This document shows, piece by piece, positions 3,067 to 48,850 of a stretch of 64,000 nt of DNA; position 1 is the stretch's first letter, and each line of letters starts with the position of its first letter. A program made the translations under genes and the position numbers. Below the pieces are notes generated by a model. It worked only from the letters and a program-made list of their open reading frames with translations. It was not told the DNA's origin and did no database searches. This stretch comes from an uncultured archaeon. GTDB taxonomy: Archaea; Aenigmatarchaeota; Aenigmatarchaeia; PWEA01; JAGHBM01. The stretch spans positions 51,507 to 115,506 of the forward strand of contig CAZXFI010000001.1 of assembly GCA_964640225.1 (NCBI GenBank), given 5' to 3'.

Positions 3067-5166
3067 ATGGCCAAGCCCCCGAAGAAGACAGAGGAAGACA
3101 TAAGAAGGGAGGAAATAAAGAAAATTCTCAGCGAGACAAGCCCGGAGTTCAAGCATCTTGCCGGGAGCAGAATAGAGACCCAGAGCAAGGAATACAAGGA
3201 GTTCAAGGAAGAAGAGATTGAAAAAAAGCTTTCTGTTTATGAAAAACTGTGCAACTTATCCGAGAAAATAGGTCTGGAACCGGATAAGGAAATGGCACGG
3301 AAAATGCAGGATGCCATAGATTTTGCGCACCTCAGGATTACACCGAAAGGGGCCTTTTCCTTTGCCATAGTGGCATGCGTCTCAATAATTTTCCTTACCA
3401 TAATCGGAACAATAACCGAGCTGGCCCTGACCGGAACCGCCAACGTAAACAATCTGCTAATATTCTTCGGTATTTCCATAGCCTCCCTGTTCGCGCTTAC
3501 AAAATACCCGGAATTCGTTGCCGACAACTTCAGGATAAAGGCCGCGCAGGAGATAATACTTGCCATAATTTACATGGTAATATACATGAGGACTTCGCCC
3601 CAGATGGAGGGGGCGGTAAGGTTCGCGGCCAAGAACCTCTCCGGCCCGCTGGCCTACGACCTGAGAAAGATACTTTGGGACGTGGAAACCAGAAGGTACG
3701 AGACAATTTACGACGCGATGACGGACTACCTGAAAGGGTGGGAAAAGAACAAGGAATTCATGGAGGCCATACAGCTCATAAGAACTAGCCTGGAGCAGCC
3801 CGAGGCCAAAAGGTACCAGATGCTGGACGAGGCAATAAACATAATACTTCAGGGGACCGAGGAGAAAATGAGACACTATTCGCAGTCTCTGAGGACTCCG
3901 GTGACCATAATATACGCGCTCGGGATAACGCTCCCCGTGCTCGTACTGGTTTTATTTCCCATCATCATGCTCATGCTGAGCGACACCATAAACCCGCTTT
4001 TCCTGGTAGTGGGCTATGACGTGGTGCTGCCGATATTGATATTCGTTATAAGCTACGAGATTCTCATGCGAAGGCCCATAGGATACAGTACGCCCGACAT
4101 AACGCTTCACCCCAAATATTCCCCGCTGGGAAAGCTCAAGCTGGTGCTAATGGGAAAGGAAAAGTTTATGCCGCTATGGCCCATGGGCGCCGCGGTGTCC
4201 GTACCCTTTGTTATTGCCGGGGTGCTGATAATGCTTTCGGACCCGTCTCCCGTGGGCTTCATCAACCTGGTCGGCTCCCTTGTCTTCGTGTGGGGCCTGG
4301 GAATAGGTTTTGCCGTGGTGTTCCTGATTGAAAGCAAGATGAAAATAGGCATCAGGAACCAGATAAAGAGCATACAGGACGAGTTCAGCGAGGCCCTGTT
4401 CCAGCTTGGCAACAGGCTGGCCCTGGGCAACCCCATGGAAAAGGCAATGGAGCAGACCATAGAAAAGGCTTCAAACCTGAAAATATCGGACCTTTTCAGG
4501 AAGGCCCTCCGCAACATAAAGAGAAGCAGCCTCCCGCTTGAGGCGGCGCTGTTTGACAGGAAAGTGGGGGCAATATGGGAATACCCATCCAAGCTCGTGA
4601 TAAACGTCATGAAAATACTCTTTGAGGCCACGAAAAAAGGCGTGAAGAACGCGGCACTGAGCGCCATATCAATATCCCGCTACGTCAAGCAGATACACAA
4701 CATAGAGGAAAGCCTGAAAGAGATGCTCAGCGAATCCACGGCAAGCATGAGGGTTCTGGGAATGTTCATCGCGCCCCTGATAGCCGGGGTAACTGTAACG
4801 ATGACAGCCATAATGATGATGATATTCAAGACTCTGGGAGAGCTCATGGGAACGCTTGAGATTACGGAAGGCAACACGGTCGGGGGAATGGGACTCCAGA
4901 ACCTCATGATAGGCTCCTGGGGAACAGTAGGAAACATACTGACAATAGGCGTTTTCCAGATAATCGTGGGTGTGTATATGATTGAAATCGGGTATCTGCT
5001 GGCCTACCTGGTCTCGGGAATAGACAACGGCCAGGGAGACCTTATTGGTAGGAGGGAACTGGCCGGGTACAACATTTTAATAGGACTGGCTGTATATACT
5101 CTTACAGTGCTTGTCACGTATTTCATATTCGCTCCCATGGTGGGAGTGCTCGTGGGCACAATGTAG
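3067..5166 (+). CDS. Polytopic membrane platform protein of archaeal type IV pilus/archaellum-like systems (FlaJ/TadC/GspF-like)
   Basis: 699 aa with multiple hydrophobic helices in N- and C-terminal blocks separated by a cytoplasmic domain, as in FlaJ/TadC. It is translationally coupled downstream of the secretion ATPase. Confidence 0.65.
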   Translation: MAKPPKKTEEDIRREEIKKILSETSPEFKHLAGSRIETQSKEYKEFKEEEIEKKLSVYEKLCNLSEKIGLEPDKEMARKMQDAIDFAHLRITPKGAFSFAIVACVSIIFLTIIGTITELALTGTANVNNLLIFFGISIASLFALTKYPEFVADNFRIKAAQEIILAIIYMVIYMRTSPQMEGAVRFAAKNLSGPLAYDLRKILWDVETRRYETIYDAMTDYLKGWEKNKEFMEAIQLIRTSLEQPEAKRYQMLDEAINIILQGTEEKMRHYSQSLRTPVTIIYALGITLPVLVLVLFPIIMLMLSDTINPLFLVVGYDVVLPILIFVISYEILMRRPIGYSTPDITLHPKYSPLGKLKLVLMGKEKFMPLWPMGAAVSVPFVIAGVLIMLSDPSPVGFINLVGSLVFVWGLGIGFAVVFLIESKMKIGIRNQIKSIQDEFSEALFQLGNRLALGNPMEKAMEQTIEKASNLKISDLFRKALRNIKRSSLPLEAALFDRKVGAIWEYPSKLVINVMKILFEATKKGVKNAALSAISISRYVKQIHNIEESLKEMLSESTASMRVLGMFIAPLIAGVTVTMTAIMMMIFKTLGELMGTLEITEGNTVGGMGLQNLMIGSWGTVGNILTIGVFQIIVGVYMIEIGYLLAYLVSGIDNGQGDLIGRRELAGYNILIGLAVYTLTVLVTYFIFAPMVGVLVGTM

Positions 5167-31064: not shown

Positions 31065-31121
31065 ATAAGATAGGAGGCCCTGAAAACATTTAAACCTTTA
31101 CTCCACAAAACTTATTTCATG

Positions 31122-31324
31122 GGCCCGTGGCGTAACCGGATAACGCGCTCGGCTTCGGACAAGCTTTTTAGAAAAAAGCTTGAGCAAAAACACGGAAACA
31201 GGGGAAACCGAGAGACTGGGGGTTCGAAAACAAAAACCTTTTGGAAAAAGGTTCTTGTATCTCCAAAACCTGGAAACGCAAAGCGTTTCCCAGTGGGGAA
31301 CGAAATTCCCTCCGGGCTCACCAA
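31122..31324 (+). tRNA. tRNA-Arg(TCG) with two introns (anticodon loop 31161-31208 and T-loop about 31230-31307); CCA encoded
   Basis: Hand-folded. Acceptor GGGCCCG/CGGGCTC, D-stem GCGT/ACGC, anticodon stem CTCGG/CCGAG with loop CTTCGGA, T-stem GGGGG/CCCTC with loop TTCGAA-T. Confidence 0.6.
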
Positions 31325-31485
31325 CAAATCCTTTTTTAGAAAAAGGCTTTGTAATTTGGAACAAGGTTCCAAGATTCCCAAAAACCTGGAAAAGCCCTGC
31401 TTTTCCCAAATAAAACGTTTAAAAGCATTTGAAAACACAAAATAAAGGTAAGTTGAAGCACATGAAATGTGCTTATTTTCAATTT

Positions 31486-31653
31486 GCTCCCATAGTCTAG
31501 TGGCCAAAACTCAAGGAGTTTTGTACTCCAGCAATAATGCTGAAGTGGCCAAGGATGCTGGCCTCTCGTAAGCTTTTTGGGAAAAAGCTTAAGCAAAAAC
31601 CAAAAGCTTTAAGAAAGCCAGAGACCGGGGTTCAAATCCCCGTGGGAGCACCA
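31486..31653 (+). tRNA. tRNA-Glu(CTC) with two introns (D-loop about 31508-31552 flanked by duplicated AGTGGCCAA; anticodon loop 31570-31616); CCA encoded
   Basis: Hand-folded. Acceptor GCTCCCA/TGGGAGC, anticodon stem CTGGC/GCCAG with loop CTCTCGT, T-arm CGGGG-TTCAAAT-CCCCG. Confidence 0.65.
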
Positions 31654-37577: not shown

Positions 37578-38659
37578 TAATTTCCTGTTCTCTGAAAATC
37601 AGTCCATAAATTCCTTGCCCAGTATGTTTTCCCTGTAATCCCTGATTGCAAAGGGTTCCACTGAAATGCTTTCCTGCATGTAGTATATGTTCACCAGGGC
37701 ATTGCTTTTTAATTTCTTTTCTTCGGGCGGTATGCTCATGGACCGGATTTTTTCCAAATCTCTGTTGAGTATCTCTTCCGGATATAATTCCATTGTATTC
37801 CCTTTAGTAGTTGGGAAGAAAAAGATTTAAACCCGTTCTGTATCAAAAGGGGTTATTTCTGGCTCCGTTAAAACTCGCTCCCGGAGCCTTATGGAGCCAC
37901 TTGAATCCAGTCTGTCTGAAATATATCTTGCCGGAGAGATATCTTTATATCCCGAATTCTGCGATAGAGAATCGTCAAACTGGAACGGAGGTGGGGTGGG
38001 ATGGCAATCAAGAAAAAGAAGAAGGTAAACAAAGAGATGGAAGAATAGACGGCAGATACTTTAGGCTTATTTTTTTCTTTTTTTTTATTTTAACATTTCA
38101 TTTCCTTTACACGGCTTCTGATCCTGTCCATTCCAACGTAAACCCTGTCGGGAGCGTCGCAAAGCACCGGCTCTTCTCCGGACTCCCCGCCGTAATGGCA
38201 AGGCGCGTACCTGTTTATCTCCCTTAAAAGTCCCTTCATCTCCGGATTCATTTCCCCGAACAAAGTGAGCGCAGGGCCGGTTTTCCTGCCCATGAAAAAT
38301 ATTGGGTGAGGGAAAATTTAAATTTTTGGATTTAGCCGATGTAGCTGACGTCCCTGCGGGGAACCTTTTTCTTCTGTTTCTCCACGGCTTTCTGGAGCTT
38401 TTCTATGAGGGATTCCACCTGGGGCAGCCGCATGTGTATCTTGGTGAGCTTCTCCTTTCCCTTAGGGGTGGAGCCCAGAAGCTCTATGTAGAACATGTCC
38501 CTTTTCCATTTTATTGAAAATCCCTTTACAAGAACCATGGGTTATTATTCGGGGAAGAATTATTTAAATGCCTCCCGCAAAACCTGTTCGGGAAAGAAAG
38601 TTAGGGAAAAACCGAACAAAATAAGCAGTTTTTTATTTGTCCCTGTCCTAAAAATTAGC

Positions 38660-43045: not shown

Positions 43046-43285
43046 GCGGGGGTGTCCGAGTAAGTTTTTAGAAAAAGCTTAAGCAAAAACTAAAAGCTTC
43101 GGGAATGGCCAAAACTGAAGTTTTGAACCCCGCCGGCAGACCGGCAAGGTGGCCAGAGGAGCAAGGTTGAGGGCCTTGTGGCTTAGTGCCTTCGCGAGTT
43201 CAAATCGGTCGACATGCACGAAGTGTATGTCCGTGCGTAGCACGTAAGGCGGAAGCCTACCGTGGAGTTCTCGTCCCCCGCACCA
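43046..43285 (+). tRNA. tRNA-Leu(GAG), type II, with two introns (D-loop 43061-43149; T-loop 43206-43269); CCA encoded
   Basis: Hand-folded. Acceptor GCGGGGG/CCCCCGC. D-arm TCC-GAG[intron]TGGCCAGA-GGA. Anticodon stem CAAGG/CCTTG with loop TTGAGGG. Variable arm GGC-TTAGT-GCC. T-stem GCGAG/CTCGT with loop TTCAAAT. Confidence 0.55.
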
Positions 43286-47168: not shown

Positions 47169-47579
47169 TTACCCTCCTTTATCGGGATTTTCAAAATCTT
47201 CCAGCGTGCGCTCCCCGAAGAACTTCCTCTTGGCCGCCTTCATGGTGCCGCTCACCCCGAGCGTGTAGGGTATAACCCTGGTGTCGCCTATCCTTTCTAT
47301 AAGCGCAAGCGCGGCTCTCACGTACTCCACGTAGTTGTTGTCGCACCTTATGAGCCCTCTCTGGTTGGCCTCATCCCAGCTGTCGCTTACAAACCATATG
47401 TTGGCCTCCGAGGCCCCCAGCTCCCCGACCAAATTGAGCAGGGAATGCCAGAAGGCGTTTAGAATGTCGCCGAAATTGATTTTTTCCTGGCTTATTATCT
47501 CAAAGGCCAGGTACCTCTTCTTTTCCCTGAGAGTCGGGGGAAGGATTTTGGTCCGGTCAGCCACCCGCACCACCTGCAA
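47169..47579 (-). CDS. rnp2: RNase P protein subunit Pop5 (Rnp2)
   Basis: LREKKRYLAFEIIS is the Pop5 signature N-terminus. About 130 aa. Adjacent to the Rpp30 gene. Confidence 0.7.
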   Translation of the reverse strand: MQVVRVADRTKILPPTLREKKRYLAFEIISQEKINFGDILNAFWHSLLNLVGELGASEANIWFVSDSWDEANQRGLIRCDNNYVEYVRAALALIERIGDTRVIPYTLGVSGTMKAAKRKFFGERTLEDFENPDKGG

Positions 47580-48222
47580 TCATTTTAGGCACGTCGGACA
47601 CGGATTTCATTGACTCCTCAAGCCCCATGCCAAGCACCTGCCCCAAGGCCGCGAGCTCCCTCGGGTCCCTCATGTCCCATTTGCTTCTTGAAGCCGAGGT
47701 TATGACCACGGGAGCCCTGTATTTCCTGGCAAGCTCTATGTTGAGCCTCATGTGGCTCAGAACGAAGGACCTTACCTTTTTGAAAGTCTCAAGAACCTCG
47801 TGGAAGTTTATTTCTATCGCCACGTTGTTTTCCATGCAGAACCTTGCTATCACGTGGTCAACGCCCGAATCAGACCTCCTGTACTCCGGGTGCGAGAGAA
47901 GCGAAACGCGGGAATCCTCCGAGGCGGCACGGTTTATCTTGTATTCCCCGCCCGAAACTATTATAAATTTTGAATGCTTCCCGGCCTTGGTCAAGGACCT
48001 CTTCATCTCCTTGACCCCGTCGGCCTCAACCTCTATTCCCGGCACTATCTTCAGGTTCTTCACGGAACGGGCCATTTCGCTTATTTTCCTGAACCTGTCC
48101 AGGTTTGCGTATTTCTCTACAAGGCCTATTCCGGAATATCCGAGCCTCTTGGCGGTTTCCACTACCTCGTCAAACTCTTCCAGGTTGTCTAGATGTATGT
48201 TTAAATCGTAAAAGTCCATCAA
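47557..48222 (-). CDS. rnp3: RNase P protein subunit Rpp30 (Rnp3), TIM/PHP-like barrel
   Basis: MMDFYDLNIHL start and about 220 aa, typical of archaeal Rpp30. Overlaps the Pop5 start by 23 nt. Confidence 0.7.
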   Translation of the reverse strand: MMDFYDLNIHLDNLEEFDEVVETAKRLGYSGIGLVEKYANLDRFRKISEMARSVKNLKIVPGIEVEADGVKEMKRSLTKAGKHSKFIIVSGGEYKINRAASEDSRVSLLSHPEYRRSDSGVDHVIARFCMENNVAIEINFHEVLETFKKVRSFVLSHMRLNIELARKYRAPVVITSASRSKWDMRDPRELAALGQVLGMGLEESMKSVSDVPKMIAGGAGG

Positions 48223-48292: not shown

Positions 48293-48850
48293 TTATTTTT
48301 TTGAGGATTTGGATTTTTCAAAGCCTTTTCCTCTGCCGTGGAGTCCCCTGCCTTCCTTTCCCGAGGAAGTCTTGCCCCTGAATACCCTTCCGCTTCCTGC
48401 CTTGCAAATCCAGTTTATCTTGTCATCCTTCTTTATGACAGGGTGGCTAGGATCCACCATTATTACCTCGTACCACTTGTGGACTCCGTCTTCGGCCACG
48501 TAGTAGGAATTCAGGACTTCCAGGTTGGAGAATTTTCTTCCGGCCCTTTCCTCGGCTATCCACTTGAGGCTCTTGGACGGGGAAAACCTGGTCATTCCGT
48601 ACTTGCTGGGTTTCCTTCCTCCTTTCGGTCTGGGCCTCTTCCTTCCTCCTCTCTTGACCCTTACCCTGGCAAGAACATAGCCCTGCTTGGCCTTGTAGCC
48701 CAGGCTCCGGGCCCTGTCAATCCTGGTGGGCTTGTCTATCCTCTCTATCACGTTCTGCTTTCTCCAGTCAACAAGCCTCTGCTTCCACAAATCTCCGAGA
48801 TTTTCCTTGGGCCTTTTCCACAGGTCCCTTACTCTTCCGTACATTCCCAT
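48293..48850 (-). CDS. rpl15e: 50S ribosomal protein L15e
   Basis: [16 protein letters not shown]...[28 protein letters not shown]...[20 protein letters not shown] is canonical L15e. Confidence 0.9.

What the first reader, a model, noticed from the sequence alone, without database searches (positions are those of the whole stretch)
31161..31616. Conserved intron hairpin motif shared by introns at different positions in three tRNAs (see also 43061-43149)
The three inserts share one motif: CAAGCTTTTTAGAAAAAAGCTTGAGCAAAAAC in the tRNA-Arg anticodon loop, AAGCTTTTTGGGAAAAAGCTTAAGCAAAAACCAAAAGCTT in the tRNA-Glu anticodon loop, and AAGTTTTTAGAAAAAGCTTAAGCAAAAACTAAAAGCTT in the tRNA-Leu D-loop. The common element is a palindromic AAGCTTTTT-NNN-AAAAAGCTT hairpin followed by AAGCAAAAAC. 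The D-loop inserts of tRNA-Glu and tRNA-Leu also share TGGCCAAAACT.AAG.AGTTTTG. The same intron family sits at non-homologous positions. This matches the described phenomenon of tRNA intron transposition in Thermoproteales and suggests recent mobility of these introns in this genome.
Basis: partly seen in the sequence, partly recalled or inferred. Interest (0 to 1): 0.65.

Follow-up and report, generated by a model that had tools for sequence, protein, structure and literature searches.

The report
Shared hairpin module in tRNA introns
Three transfer-RNA genes of an uncultured ultra-small (DPANN) archaeon are each interrupted by two or three introns, and three of those introns are built around one 31-base hairpin-plus-tail sequence that also turns up in tRNA introns and at gene ends of many other DPANN archaea, so it behaves like a small spreading repeat and not a private intron family.

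Summary
tRNA-Arg(TCG), tRNA-Glu(CTC) and tRNA-Leu(GAG) carry seven inserts. All seven fit bulge-helix-bulge (BHB) splice geometry, and removing them gives perfect cloverleaf tRNAs. Three inserts (Arg 37/38, Glu 37/38, Leu 15/16) share YAAGCTTTTT-N3-AAAAAGCTTR-AGCAAAAAC, well beyond composition-preserving shuffles (z 6-10).

The host is a DPANN archaeon, not Thermoproteales. The second claimed motif (TGGCCAAAACT…) is mostly exon plus a forced GGCC/GGCC splice helix.

Syntenic relatives show a real mosaic. The same intron family sits in tRNA-Arg in one genome and tRNA-Glu in another. The Arg 37/38 intron exists in all four genomes, but only this one has the full module.

The module is widespread in DPANN metagenomes. 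It occurs in D-, anticodon- and T-loop introns of at least 11 isoacceptors, in either orientation. It also occurs in tRNA trailers and directly on stop codons. Related hairpin-plus-A-tail forms occur in Methanosarcina, Clostridia, Acetobacteraceae plasmids and giant-virus MAGs.

Best reading: a REP-like propagating palindrome that is tolerated in introns and supplies the outer helix next to the 5' splice site. What propagates it is unknown.

The parts
31121..31323 (+). tRNA-Arg(TCG) gene with two introns and encoded CCA
   Evidence: Spliced product is a 77-nt canonical cloverleaf. Orthologues lie next to ProRS in three relatives.
31159..31206 (+). Arg intron 1, 48 nt, position 37/38, carries the module
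   Evidence: Central helix H CTTC/GGGG 4/4, bulges GG|A and AA|A, anticodon stem h = 5 bp. The MFE fold shows a 10-bp local hairpin next to the 5' bulge.
31160..31191 (+). Module copy 1: CAAGCTTTTT-AGA-AAAAAGCTTG-AGCAAAAAC
   Evidence: hairpin alone -9.4 kcal/mol.
31229..31306 (+). Arg intron 2, 78 nt, T-loop 59/60, 'family B' (AACCTTTT-GG-AAAAAGGTT hairpin + CCAAAACCTGGAAA-hairpin-TTTCCC)
   Evidence: H TTCG/CGAA 4/4, h = 5. Homologous to the bin779 tRNA-Glu T-loop intron, z 13.6.
31324..31485 (+). Arg-Glu spacer / tRNA-Arg 3' trailer containing a family-B-like element and the tRNA-Glu promoter region
   Evidence: Similar to Arg intron 2, z 8.5, and to the L326 spacer, z 7.5.
31486..31653 (+). 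tRNA-Glu(CTC) gene with two introns and encoded CCA
   Evidence: Spliced product is a 76-nt cloverleaf.
31508..31552 (+). Glu intron 1, 45 nt, D-loop/D-stem 21/22
   Evidence: H GGCC/GGCC 4/4, bulges AA|A and AA|G, h' = 3. Absent from bin779 tRNA-Glu; L326 carries a different D-loop insert.
31569..31615 (+). Glu intron 2, 47 nt, position 37/38, carries the module plus a third arm
   Evidence: h = 5, h' = 8 (arm 1 pairs with the third AAAAGCTT at 31602-31609), central helix only 2/4. The MFE fold agrees. Orthologous module intron in L326, z 8.9; degenerate in bin779.
31569..31600 (+). Module copy 2: TAAGCTTTTT-GGG-AAAAAGCTTA-AGCAAAAAC
43046..43285 (+). tRNA-Leu(GAG) gene with three introns and encoded CCA
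   Evidence: Spliced product is an 87-nt class II cloverleaf.
43061..43105 (+). Leu intron 1, 45 nt, D-arm 15/16, carries the module plus a third arm
   Evidence: H TCCG/CGGG 4/4, bulges AG|T and AA|T, h' = 10.
43061..43090 (+). Module copy 3: TAAGTTTTT-AGA-AAAAGCTTA-AGCAAAAAC (one base shorter; one T.G pair)
43113..43156 (+). Leu intron 2, 44 nt, D-loop/D-stem 21/22, same position and same GGCC/GGCC helix as Glu intron 1
43205..43268 (+). Leu intron 3, 64 nt, T-loop 59/60, 'family C'
   Evidence: H TTCA/TGGA 4/4, h = 5, h' = 4. Homologous to the tRNA-Arg T-loop intron of relative L325, z 7.9.

Best explanation
The three inserts are genuine BHB introns whose body is a ~31-nt REP-like palindromic module: a 10-bp A/U-rich hairpin YAAGCUUUUU-loop-AAAAAGCUUR followed by the tail AGCAAAAAC, optionally with a third AAAAGCUU arm. 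In the pre-tRNA the hairpin starts 0-4 nt after the 5' splice site and acts as the outer helix h' beside the 5' bulge, either on its own or by pairing arm 1 with the third arm. The A-rich tail is a spacer. A short segment specific to each intron (4 nt plus 2 nt) pairs with the exon to form the central helix and the 3' bulge. A splicing endonuclease cuts both bulges and a ligase joins the exons; this step is inferred from what is known of archaeal tRNA splicing. The module is a small repeat that propagates in DPANN genomes at the DNA level, in either orientation. It persists only where it does no harm or is useful: inside introns that are spliced out, in tRNA trailers, and immediately at stop codons. 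The shared motif at non-homologous tRNA positions therefore reflects repeated acquisition or exchange of one module, and in this clade whole introns also relocate between tRNA genes. Shown here: tRNA structure, BHB geometry, sequence significance, polymorphism among relatives, wide distribution and both orientations. Inferred: actual splicing, DNA-level propagation, and the agent that propagates it.
For: 1. Seven inserts with BHB geometry whose removal gives canonical tRNAs. 2. Predicted folds place the hairpin next to the 5' bulge. 3. The three module introns are similar far beyond shuffles. 4. All three module copies in 64 kb lie in tRNA introns, and 5 of 7 T/A-run hairpins in the window lie at the tRNA loci. 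5. Module presence is decoupled from intron presence. The Arg 37/38 intron is 48 nt with the full module here, 38 nt with a variant in L325, 13 nt (ACAAGCGGAAGAA, keeping the first 6 nt) in bin779, and an unrelated 12 nt in L326. 6. The same variant core ACCAGTAAAAAGCAAAAAAC sits in the Arg intron of one genome and the Glu intron of another. 7. In other DPANN contigs, 16 single-intron tRNAs of at least 11 isoacceptors carry it in anticodon-, D- or T-arm introns. 8. Two canonical 37/38 introns carry it in reverse orientation. 9. Of 123 metagenome copies, 19 have their TAA as the stop codon of an ORF of at least 60 codons, and 3 follow tRNA 3' ends. 10. The closing base pair covaries: T-A in DPANN, C-G in Clostridia and this Arg copy, G-C in Acetobacteraceae. 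11. Non-Watson-Crick stem positions are G.T 6-7 against A.C 1.
Against: 1. No transposase or any other gene family is linked to the copies. 2. No target-site duplication or clean empty/filled site pair was found, so DNA-level mobility is inferred only from distribution and orientation. 3. Most external copies were found with exact-match patterns, so their near-identity is partly ascertainment. A control hairpin with another core (AACC/GGTT) has the same kind of tail, so similar forms in bacteria and giant viruses could be convergent use of a simple motif and not one element. 4. Inside this window the module is not seen at gene ends. 5. The Glu 37/38 central helix is only 2/4 paired. 6. A T5 run inside an intron could act as an archaeal termination signal, which is odd for a harmless passenger. 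7. The splicing endonuclease was not located.
Confidence: 0.5

Rival explanations
1. Classical whole-intron transposition. One ancestral BHB intron family copied itself between tRNA genes and positions within this lineage, at the RNA level (reverse splicing plus reverse transcription) or by recombination, as proposed for Thermoproteales. The copies outside tRNAs would be unrelated look-alikes.
For: Families B and C do relocate as whole introns between tRNA-Arg, -Glu and -Leu across related genomes. They do so at conserved loops whose sequence (TTCGAA) lets the same exon-pairing segment work in several tRNAs. The window's module copies are exclusively intronic.
Against: The module-bearing introns share only the module, and their exon-pairing 3' parts differ. 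The Arg 37/38 intron exists without the module in two relatives. Reverse-orientation copies occur in canonical introns. Many copies sit exactly on stop codons or after tRNA 3' ends in DPANN contigs.
Confidence: 0.22
2. The hairpin-plus-tail is a functional cis-element, such as a transcript 3'-end or terminator signal, an RNA-stabilising hairpin, or the binding site of a conserved protein. It would be kept by selection wherever it occurs, and its presence in introns would serve tRNA expression or processing.
For: In viral contigs, 50 of 100 oriented copies have a same-strand ORF ending within 100 nt upstream, while ORF starts nearby are rare. In DPANN the TAA of the module is often the stop codon. 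A family-B hairpin with T6 follows tRNA-Arg in all relatives. The sequence is kept near-identical across DPANN phyla. The G.T over A.C bias suggests selection on the RNA strand.
Against: In the sense strand the hairpin is followed by an A-run and not a U-run, so it is not a canonical intrinsic terminator. A terminator inside a tRNA gene would be harmful. Either orientation occurs in introns. Relatives do without it in the orthologous intron. There is no Rfam family and no linked protein.
Confidence: 0.2
3. Chance resemblance of low-complexity A/T-rich intron sequence.
For: The motif is A/T-rich, and such hairpins are common in AT-rich genomes.
Against: 0 of 500 dinucleotide-preserving shuffles reach the observed scores. 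There are three exact 18-mers where 0.26 are expected with 3 mismatches allowed. 66 of 133 tail-anchored matches elsewhere carry the matching first arm.
Confidence: 0.02

Closest known systems
Archaeal BHB tRNA introns at non-canonical and multiple positions (Thermoproteales; ARMAN; other DPANN)
   Same: Two 3-nt bulges around a 4-bp helix; up to three introns per tRNA; positions in D-, anticodon- and T-arms; relaxed forms lacking h or h'. Increased tRNA gene disruption in DPANN lineages is already reported (PMC5829648).
   Different: Here a sequence-conserved 31-nt hairpin-plus-tail module fills the intron and supplies h'. I found no description of that module; an exact-string full-text search was negative, which is limited evidence.
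[quoted passage not shown] 2010, as summarised in PMC4033280)
   Same: Similar intron sequences occur in different tRNA species and positions, and there is presence/absence polymorphism among relatives.
   Different: The host is a DPANN archaeon. The shared unit is a sub-intron module that also occurs outside introns and in both orientations. The module can be absent from the orthologous intron.
REP/BIME repetitive extragenic palindromes of bacteria (e.g. GTAG/CGTC-tagged REPs, PMC3733652)
   Same: A 20-40-nt palindrome with an asymmetric conserved tag. Many copies occur at gene 3' ends, sometimes in tandem. No gene lies inside the element.
   Different: The tag is 3' (AGCAAAAAC), not a 5' GTAG/CGTC. 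No RAYT-type transposase was found. Residence in tRNA introns and use of its TAA as a stop codon are not REP features.
Split and permuted tRNA genes of Nanoarchaeum and Caldivirga
   Same: Disrupted tRNA genes in small archaeal genomes, repaired through BHB processing.
   Different: These three genes are contiguous and collinear, with no separate halves.

Membership tests
Archaeal BHB tRNA intron | Removal of the insert restores a canonical cloverleaf tRNA | tested here: met
   ARAGORN on the spliced sequences gives Arg(tcg) 77 nt, Glu(ctc) 76 nt and Leu(gag) 87 nt.
Archaeal BHB tRNA intron | Splice sites lie in two 3-nt bulges separated by a 4-bp helix | tested here: met
   Six of seven introns have the central helix 4/4 paired at the exact geometry. 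Glu 37/38 has the right spacing but only 2/4 pairs.
Archaeal BHB tRNA intron | At least one flanking helix (h or h') | tested here: met
   h = 5 for Arg_ac, Arg_T, Glu_ac and Leu_T; h' = 8-10 for Glu_ac and Leu_D1; h' = 3 for the two 21/22 introns.
Archaeal BHB tRNA intron | Genome encodes a splicing endonuclease able to cut relaxed or non-canonical BHB motifs | not tested
   Only ten window ORFs were scanned with Pfam and none is tRNA_int_endo. The rest of the genome was not available.
Archaeal BHB tRNA intron | Intron is actually excised in vivo | not testable with these tools
   No transcript data.
Transposed tRNA intron families (Thermoproteales type) | Significant sequence similarity between introns of different tRNAs or positions | tested here: met
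   z 6.2-10.3 within the window; z 7.9-13.6 between different tRNAs of related genomes.
Transposed tRNA intron families (Thermoproteales type) | Host belongs to Thermoproteales | tested here: not met
   Best named ProRS relatives are DPANN (bin779 77%, Aenigmatarchaeota 63-71%, Woesearchaeota about 60%).
Transposed tRNA intron families (Thermoproteales type) | Whole intron, including its exon-pairing part, is the copied unit | tested here: inconclusive
   True for families B and C at the conserved T-loop. Not true for the module introns, whose 3' parts differ and whose orthologous introns can lack the module.
REP/BIME-type repeat | Short palindrome with an asymmetric conserved tag, present in many copies | tested here: met
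The tail is also one-sided in a hairpin-only scan.
REP/BIME-type repeat | Extragenic, preferentially just 3' of genes | tested here: inconclusive
   Met in other DPANN contigs and viral contigs. Not met in this window, where all copies are intronic.
REP/BIME-type repeat | Cognate RAYT (Y1) transposase in the genome | not tested
   No shared neighbouring gene family in 63 + 107 + 136 loci. Whole genomes were not searched.
MITE | Terminal inverted repeats plus target-site duplication | tested here: inconclusive
   The arms could be read as TIRs. No consistent duplication was seen in the flanks listed.
Intrinsic (hairpin + U-tract) terminator | U-run immediately 3' of the hairpin on the transcribed strand | tested here: not met
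   The sense-strand tail is RAGCAAAAAC, and on the other strand the T-run precedes the hairpin.

The most novel reading that the evidence does not exclude
A protein-less, REP-like palindromic element (hairpin + AGCAAAAAC tail) is actively spreading through DPANN genomes and is a direct source of archaeal tRNA intron content, possibly of new introns. Insertion next to a short self- or exon-complementary stretch would give an immediately spliceable relaxed BHB. That would link selfish palindromic DNA to the origin and turnover of protein-spliced introns. Related forms in Methanosarcina, Clostridia, Acetobacteraceae and giant viruses would then point to a very widely used class of element or signal that has no name yet.
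Probability: 0.25. Interest if true: 0.8.

Novelty: new variant of a known kind. Interest (0 to 1): 0.6.

Why it matters
How archaeal tRNA genes gain introns is unsettled. The only large-scale evidence for intron transposition comes from one crenarchaeal order. This locus and its relatives show the same mosaic in a DPANN clade. They also isolate a discrete, sequence-conserved building block that is shared by introns of many tRNAs, in many DPANN lineages, at all three loops and in both orientations, and that also lives outside introns. That makes a concrete question testable: are BHB introns seeded or remodelled by a propagating palindromic repeat? On the practical side, standard tRNA finders missed all three genes. 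Knowing the module could help recover 'missing' tRNAs in DPANN genomes.

Tried and rejected
2. The full module has no exact match in IMG/VR.
3. Rfam found no family at the motif in the window or in 26 other loci.
4. The weak 'RNase_P' hit at 37994-38132 scores on both strands in an A/T-rich stretch, so I dismissed it.
5. Type III toxin-antitoxin (ToxI-like) arrays, CRISPR repeats, IS200/IS605 ends, group II intron targets and promoter readings were considered for the tandem arrays and the bacterial copies. None had supporting neighbouring genes or consistent spacing.
6. The idea that the module is a terminator-plus-promoter cassette that splits the tRNA was dropped, because reversed copies occur in canonical introns.
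7. The orthologous tRNA-Leu locus in relatives could not be recovered. Synteny is not kept or the contigs end there.
8. The NCBI accession of the source contig was not returned.
9. A full-text search for the exact sequences returned only unrelated primer matches.
10. A search for literature on DPANN palindromic repeats found nothing specific.

Full report
**What is in the window.** The raw sequence shows tRNA-like ends around 31121-31323, 31486-31653 and 43046-43285. ARAGORN and Rfam at gathering threshold report no tRNA.

I scanned for inserts whose ends fit the archaeal bulge-helix-bulge (BHB) geometry: a 4-bp central helix H flanked by two 3-nt bulges, cut after the second bulge base, with outer helices h and h'. 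Seven inserts resulted:

| tRNA | Coordinates | Length | Position |
|---|---|---|---|
| Arg | 31159-31206 | 48 nt | 37/38 |
| Arg | 31229-31306 | 78 nt | 59/60 |
| Glu | 31508-31552 | 45 nt | 21/22 |
| Glu | 31569-31615 | 47 nt | 37/38 |
| Leu | 43061-43105 | 45 nt | 15/16 |
| Leu | 43113-43156 | 44 nt | 21/22 |
| Leu | 43205-43268 | 64 nt | 59/60 |

Six have H fully paired. Glu 37/38 has the right spacing, h = 5 and h' = 8, but only 2/4 pairs in H. With all seven removed, ARAGORN returns textbook tRNA-Arg(tcg), tRNA-Glu(ctc) and class II tRNA-Leu(gag), each with an encoded CCA.

**The shared motif.** Three introns (Arg 37/38, Glu 37/38, Leu 15/16) begin, within one base of the 5' splice site, with YAAGCTTTTT-N3-AAAAAGCTTR-AGCAAAAAC.
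- The 18-mer AAAAGCTTRAGCAAAAAC occurs exactly three times in 64 kb, against 0.26 expected even with three mismatches allowed.
- Pairwise local alignments beat all 500 dinucleotide-preserving shuffles, with z 6.2-10.3.
TGGCCAA is D-loop exon. The two D-loop introns sit at the same position. Their 3' copy of GTGGCCA is required because the central helix is the self-complementary GGCC/GGCC. Intron-only similarity is z 2.0.
- The Arg T-loop intron resembles the Arg-Glu spacer, z 8.5.

**Structure.** Alone, the module folds into a 10-bp hairpin with a single-stranded tail, -9.4 and -7.8 kcal/mol for the Arg and Glu copies. In Arg the local hairpin abuts the 5' bulge. In Glu and Leu a third AAAAGCUU downstream pairs with arm 1, giving an h' that runs directly into the central helix. 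The motif is therefore not the BHB core. It is the outer helix plus a spacer.

**Whose genome.** The window's prolyl-tRNA synthetase is 100% identical to a protein on a 220-kb NCBI contig and on Logan run SRR7048225. It is 77% identical to 'archaeon isolate bin779' (CP070662.1, 833 kb) and 63-71% identical to Aenigmatarchaeota MAGs, with Woesearchaeota and Nanoarchaeota below that. This is a DPANN archaeon, not Thermoproteales. Increased tRNA gene disruption in DPANN is already in the literature (PMC5829648).

**Relatives.** The order ProRS, GATase-like gene, tRNA-Arg, tRNA-Glu is conserved in bin779 (L324), CAZOZN010000001.1 (L326) and a Logan contig (L325). I delimited their introns the same way.
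- The Arg 37/38 intron is present in all four genomes. It is 48 nt with the full module here and 38 nt with a variant core (ACCAGTAAAAAGCAAAAAAC) in L325. In bin779 it is 13 nt (ACAAGCGGAAGAA, keeping the first six bases), and in L326 an unrelated 12 nt.
- The Glu 37/38 intron has the module here and in L326 (z 8.9). bin779 carries the same variant core as the L325 Arg intron (24/25 identical, z 8.1).
- The window's Arg T-loop intron matches the bin779 Glu T-loop intron over about 70 nt (z 13.6).
- The window's Leu T-loop intron matches the L325 Arg T-loop intron (z 7.9).
- The Glu D-loop intron is absent in bin779 and replaced by a different insert in L326.

Intron families are therefore distributed as a mosaic over tRNAs and genomes. 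This is the pattern called intron transposition in Thermoproteales (PMC4033280). Presence of the module is decoupled from presence of the intron.

**The module beyond this clade.** Of 133 matches to second arm plus tail, 66 also carried the first arm. These include:
- tRNA introns of Woesearchaeota, Nanoarchaeota, Iainarchaeota and bin779;
- short tandem arrays upstream of rpl44e in five Methanosarcina genomes;
- many Clostridia/Oscillospiraceae MAGs and the isolate Oscillibacter sp. 1-3;
- Komagataeibacter plasmids, which carry GAAGCTTTTTGAAAAAAGCTTCACCAAAAAC in intergenic DNA.

A metagenome scan for the DPANN form also hit its limit, with 123 copies. Context of those 123 copies (unless stated):
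- 111 are preceded by T, which closes a T-A pair.
- About a quarter lie inside tRNA genes.
- For 16 single-intron tRNAs of at least 11 isoacceptors, removing a BHB-consistent insert containing the module gives a valid tRNA. These split into 11 anticodon-loop, 3 D-arm and 2 T-arm cases, with AAGC starting 0-4 nt after the splice site.
- Two canonical 37/38 introns (tRNA-Arg in L351, tRNA-Ser in L444) carry the module in reverse orientation.
- In 19 copies the module's TAA is the stop codon of an ORF of at least 60 codons.
- Three copies follow tRNA 3' ends.

No gene family is shared by the neighbourhoods.

**A wider class, and a caveat.** A hairpin-only scan of IMG/VR (AAGCTTTTT-N1-4-AAAAAGCTT) found 107 stretches in phage, prophage and giant-virus contigs, often in tandem arrays. 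On one side there was nearly always a tail of the form N1-3-[C/G]C-A4-5. A control hairpin with another core (AACC…GGTT, as in the window's family-B intron) has the same tail. Oriented by the tail, half of the viral copies have a same-strand ORF ending within 100 nt upstream, and ORF starts are rare.

So there is a broad class of '[AA-SS-T5] loop [A5-SS-TT] + CCA-run' elements at gene 3' ends. Because my prokaryotic hits were seeded with exact strings, the striking 31-mer identity between DPANN and Clostridia is partly ascertainment within that class. Whether the class is one element family or convergent use of a simple signal is open. Within DPANN loci the AAGC core dominates, but AAAC and AACC cores also occur. 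Among imperfect hairpins, G.T pairs outnumber A.C 6-7 to 1. This is weak evidence for selection on the tail-sense RNA strand.

**Most likely mechanism.**
- Shown: these are BHB introns, and the module forms h' and a spacer.
- Shown: the module and whole introns are gained, lost and exchanged among tRNAs in this clade.
- Shown: the module is abundant in DPANN in harmless or 3'-end positions, in both orientations.
- Inferred: it propagates at the DNA level like a REP-type repeat and survives in introns because they are spliced out. Introns at conserved loops (TTCGAA T-loop, GGCC D-loop) can move as whole units, because their exon-pairing segment fits many tRNAs. Anticodon-loop introns keep their own pairing segment and acquire the module secondarily.
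- Unknown: the propagating enzyme, and whether the element also has a function such as 3'-end formation or protein binding.

**Limits.** There are no transcript data. The splicing endonuclease was not located. The rest of the source genome was not available. The tRNA-Leu orthologues were not recovered.

Noticed in passing
window 31324-31485; L324 13093-13202; L326 13003-13133: The tRNA-Arg 3' trailer / Arg-Glu spacer carries a conserved element: a CCTTTT…AAAAGG hairpin with a T-run, then CCCAAAA(C)CTGGAAA-hairpin-TTTCCC. The same element also serves as a T-loop intron, in tRNA-Arg here and in tRNA-Glu in bin779. A trailer and an intron sharing one sequence is unexplained.
   Followed up: partly
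L340, L369, L372, L389, L392, L422, L429, L435 (metagenome contigs): The module lies in reverse orientation 0-2 nt upstream of an ATG on the other strand, with GGA/GGAT-like (Shine-Dalgarno-like) bases in the hairpin loop. It is joined to a conserved ~60-nt block GGAGGCTA…CGCCTTCC. The downstream genes differ and there is no Rfam match. It looks like a portable 5' UTR or promoter cassette.
   Followed up: partly
L337, L348, L358, L374, L381, L407, L430, L432 (two copies), L436: A 52-nt composite repeat AAGCTTTTTTCAAAAAAGCTTAAGCAAAAAATTARGGTATWATTTCAAT has variable flanks on both sides. Its reverse complement starts with ATTGAAAT, reminiscent of a CRISPR repeat handle, but the spacing (346 nt in L432) does not fit an array.
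   Followed up: no
L044, L052, L063, L081, L098 (Methanosarcina), e.g. L098 reverse strand 4990-5160: Two or three tandem units of about 58 nt, each containing CCAAGCTTTTTGAGAAAAAGCTTGAGCAAAAAC, are conserved upstream of the ribosomal protein L44e gene in five Methanosarcina genomes.
   Followed up: no
L137, L149, L155, L163, L192, L247, L272, L275, L292, L297 (giant-virus MAG contigs): These contigs carry tandem arrays (31-63-nt period) of T5/A5 hairpins with AAGC or AACC cores and GACCAAAAA-type tails. Individual giant-virus MAGs hold many copies on many contigs.
   Followed up: no
L064 1-200, L051 1-140, L062 220-330 (Clostridia MAG SRR6425794_bin.48): Arrays of 37-39-nt period AAAAAAGCTTGAGCAAAAACTTTGCACGGGTGCTG(T)TTT sit inside a longer, highly structured intergenic repeat of about 200 nt. 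That repeat is present on many contig ends of two Clostridia MAGs.
   Followed up: no
L326 13478-14722: In relative CAZOZN010000001.1 a phage-integrase-family gene (PF00589) starts 50 nt after tRNA-Glu. This suggests an integrated element at this tRNA locus that is absent from the window.
   Followed up: no
window 47557-48222 (-), 48293-48850 (-): RNase P protein subunit p30 and ribosomal protein L15e are encoded here. No RNase P RNA was recognised in the window. The Rfam 'RNase_P' hit at 37994-38132 scores on both strands and looks spurious.
   Followed up: partly
window 31121-31323, 31486-31653, 43046-43285: All three tRNA genes were invisible to ARAGORN and to Rfam at gathering threshold because of their multiple introns. 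tRNA complements of such DPANN genomes are probably under-annotated.
   Followed up: yes
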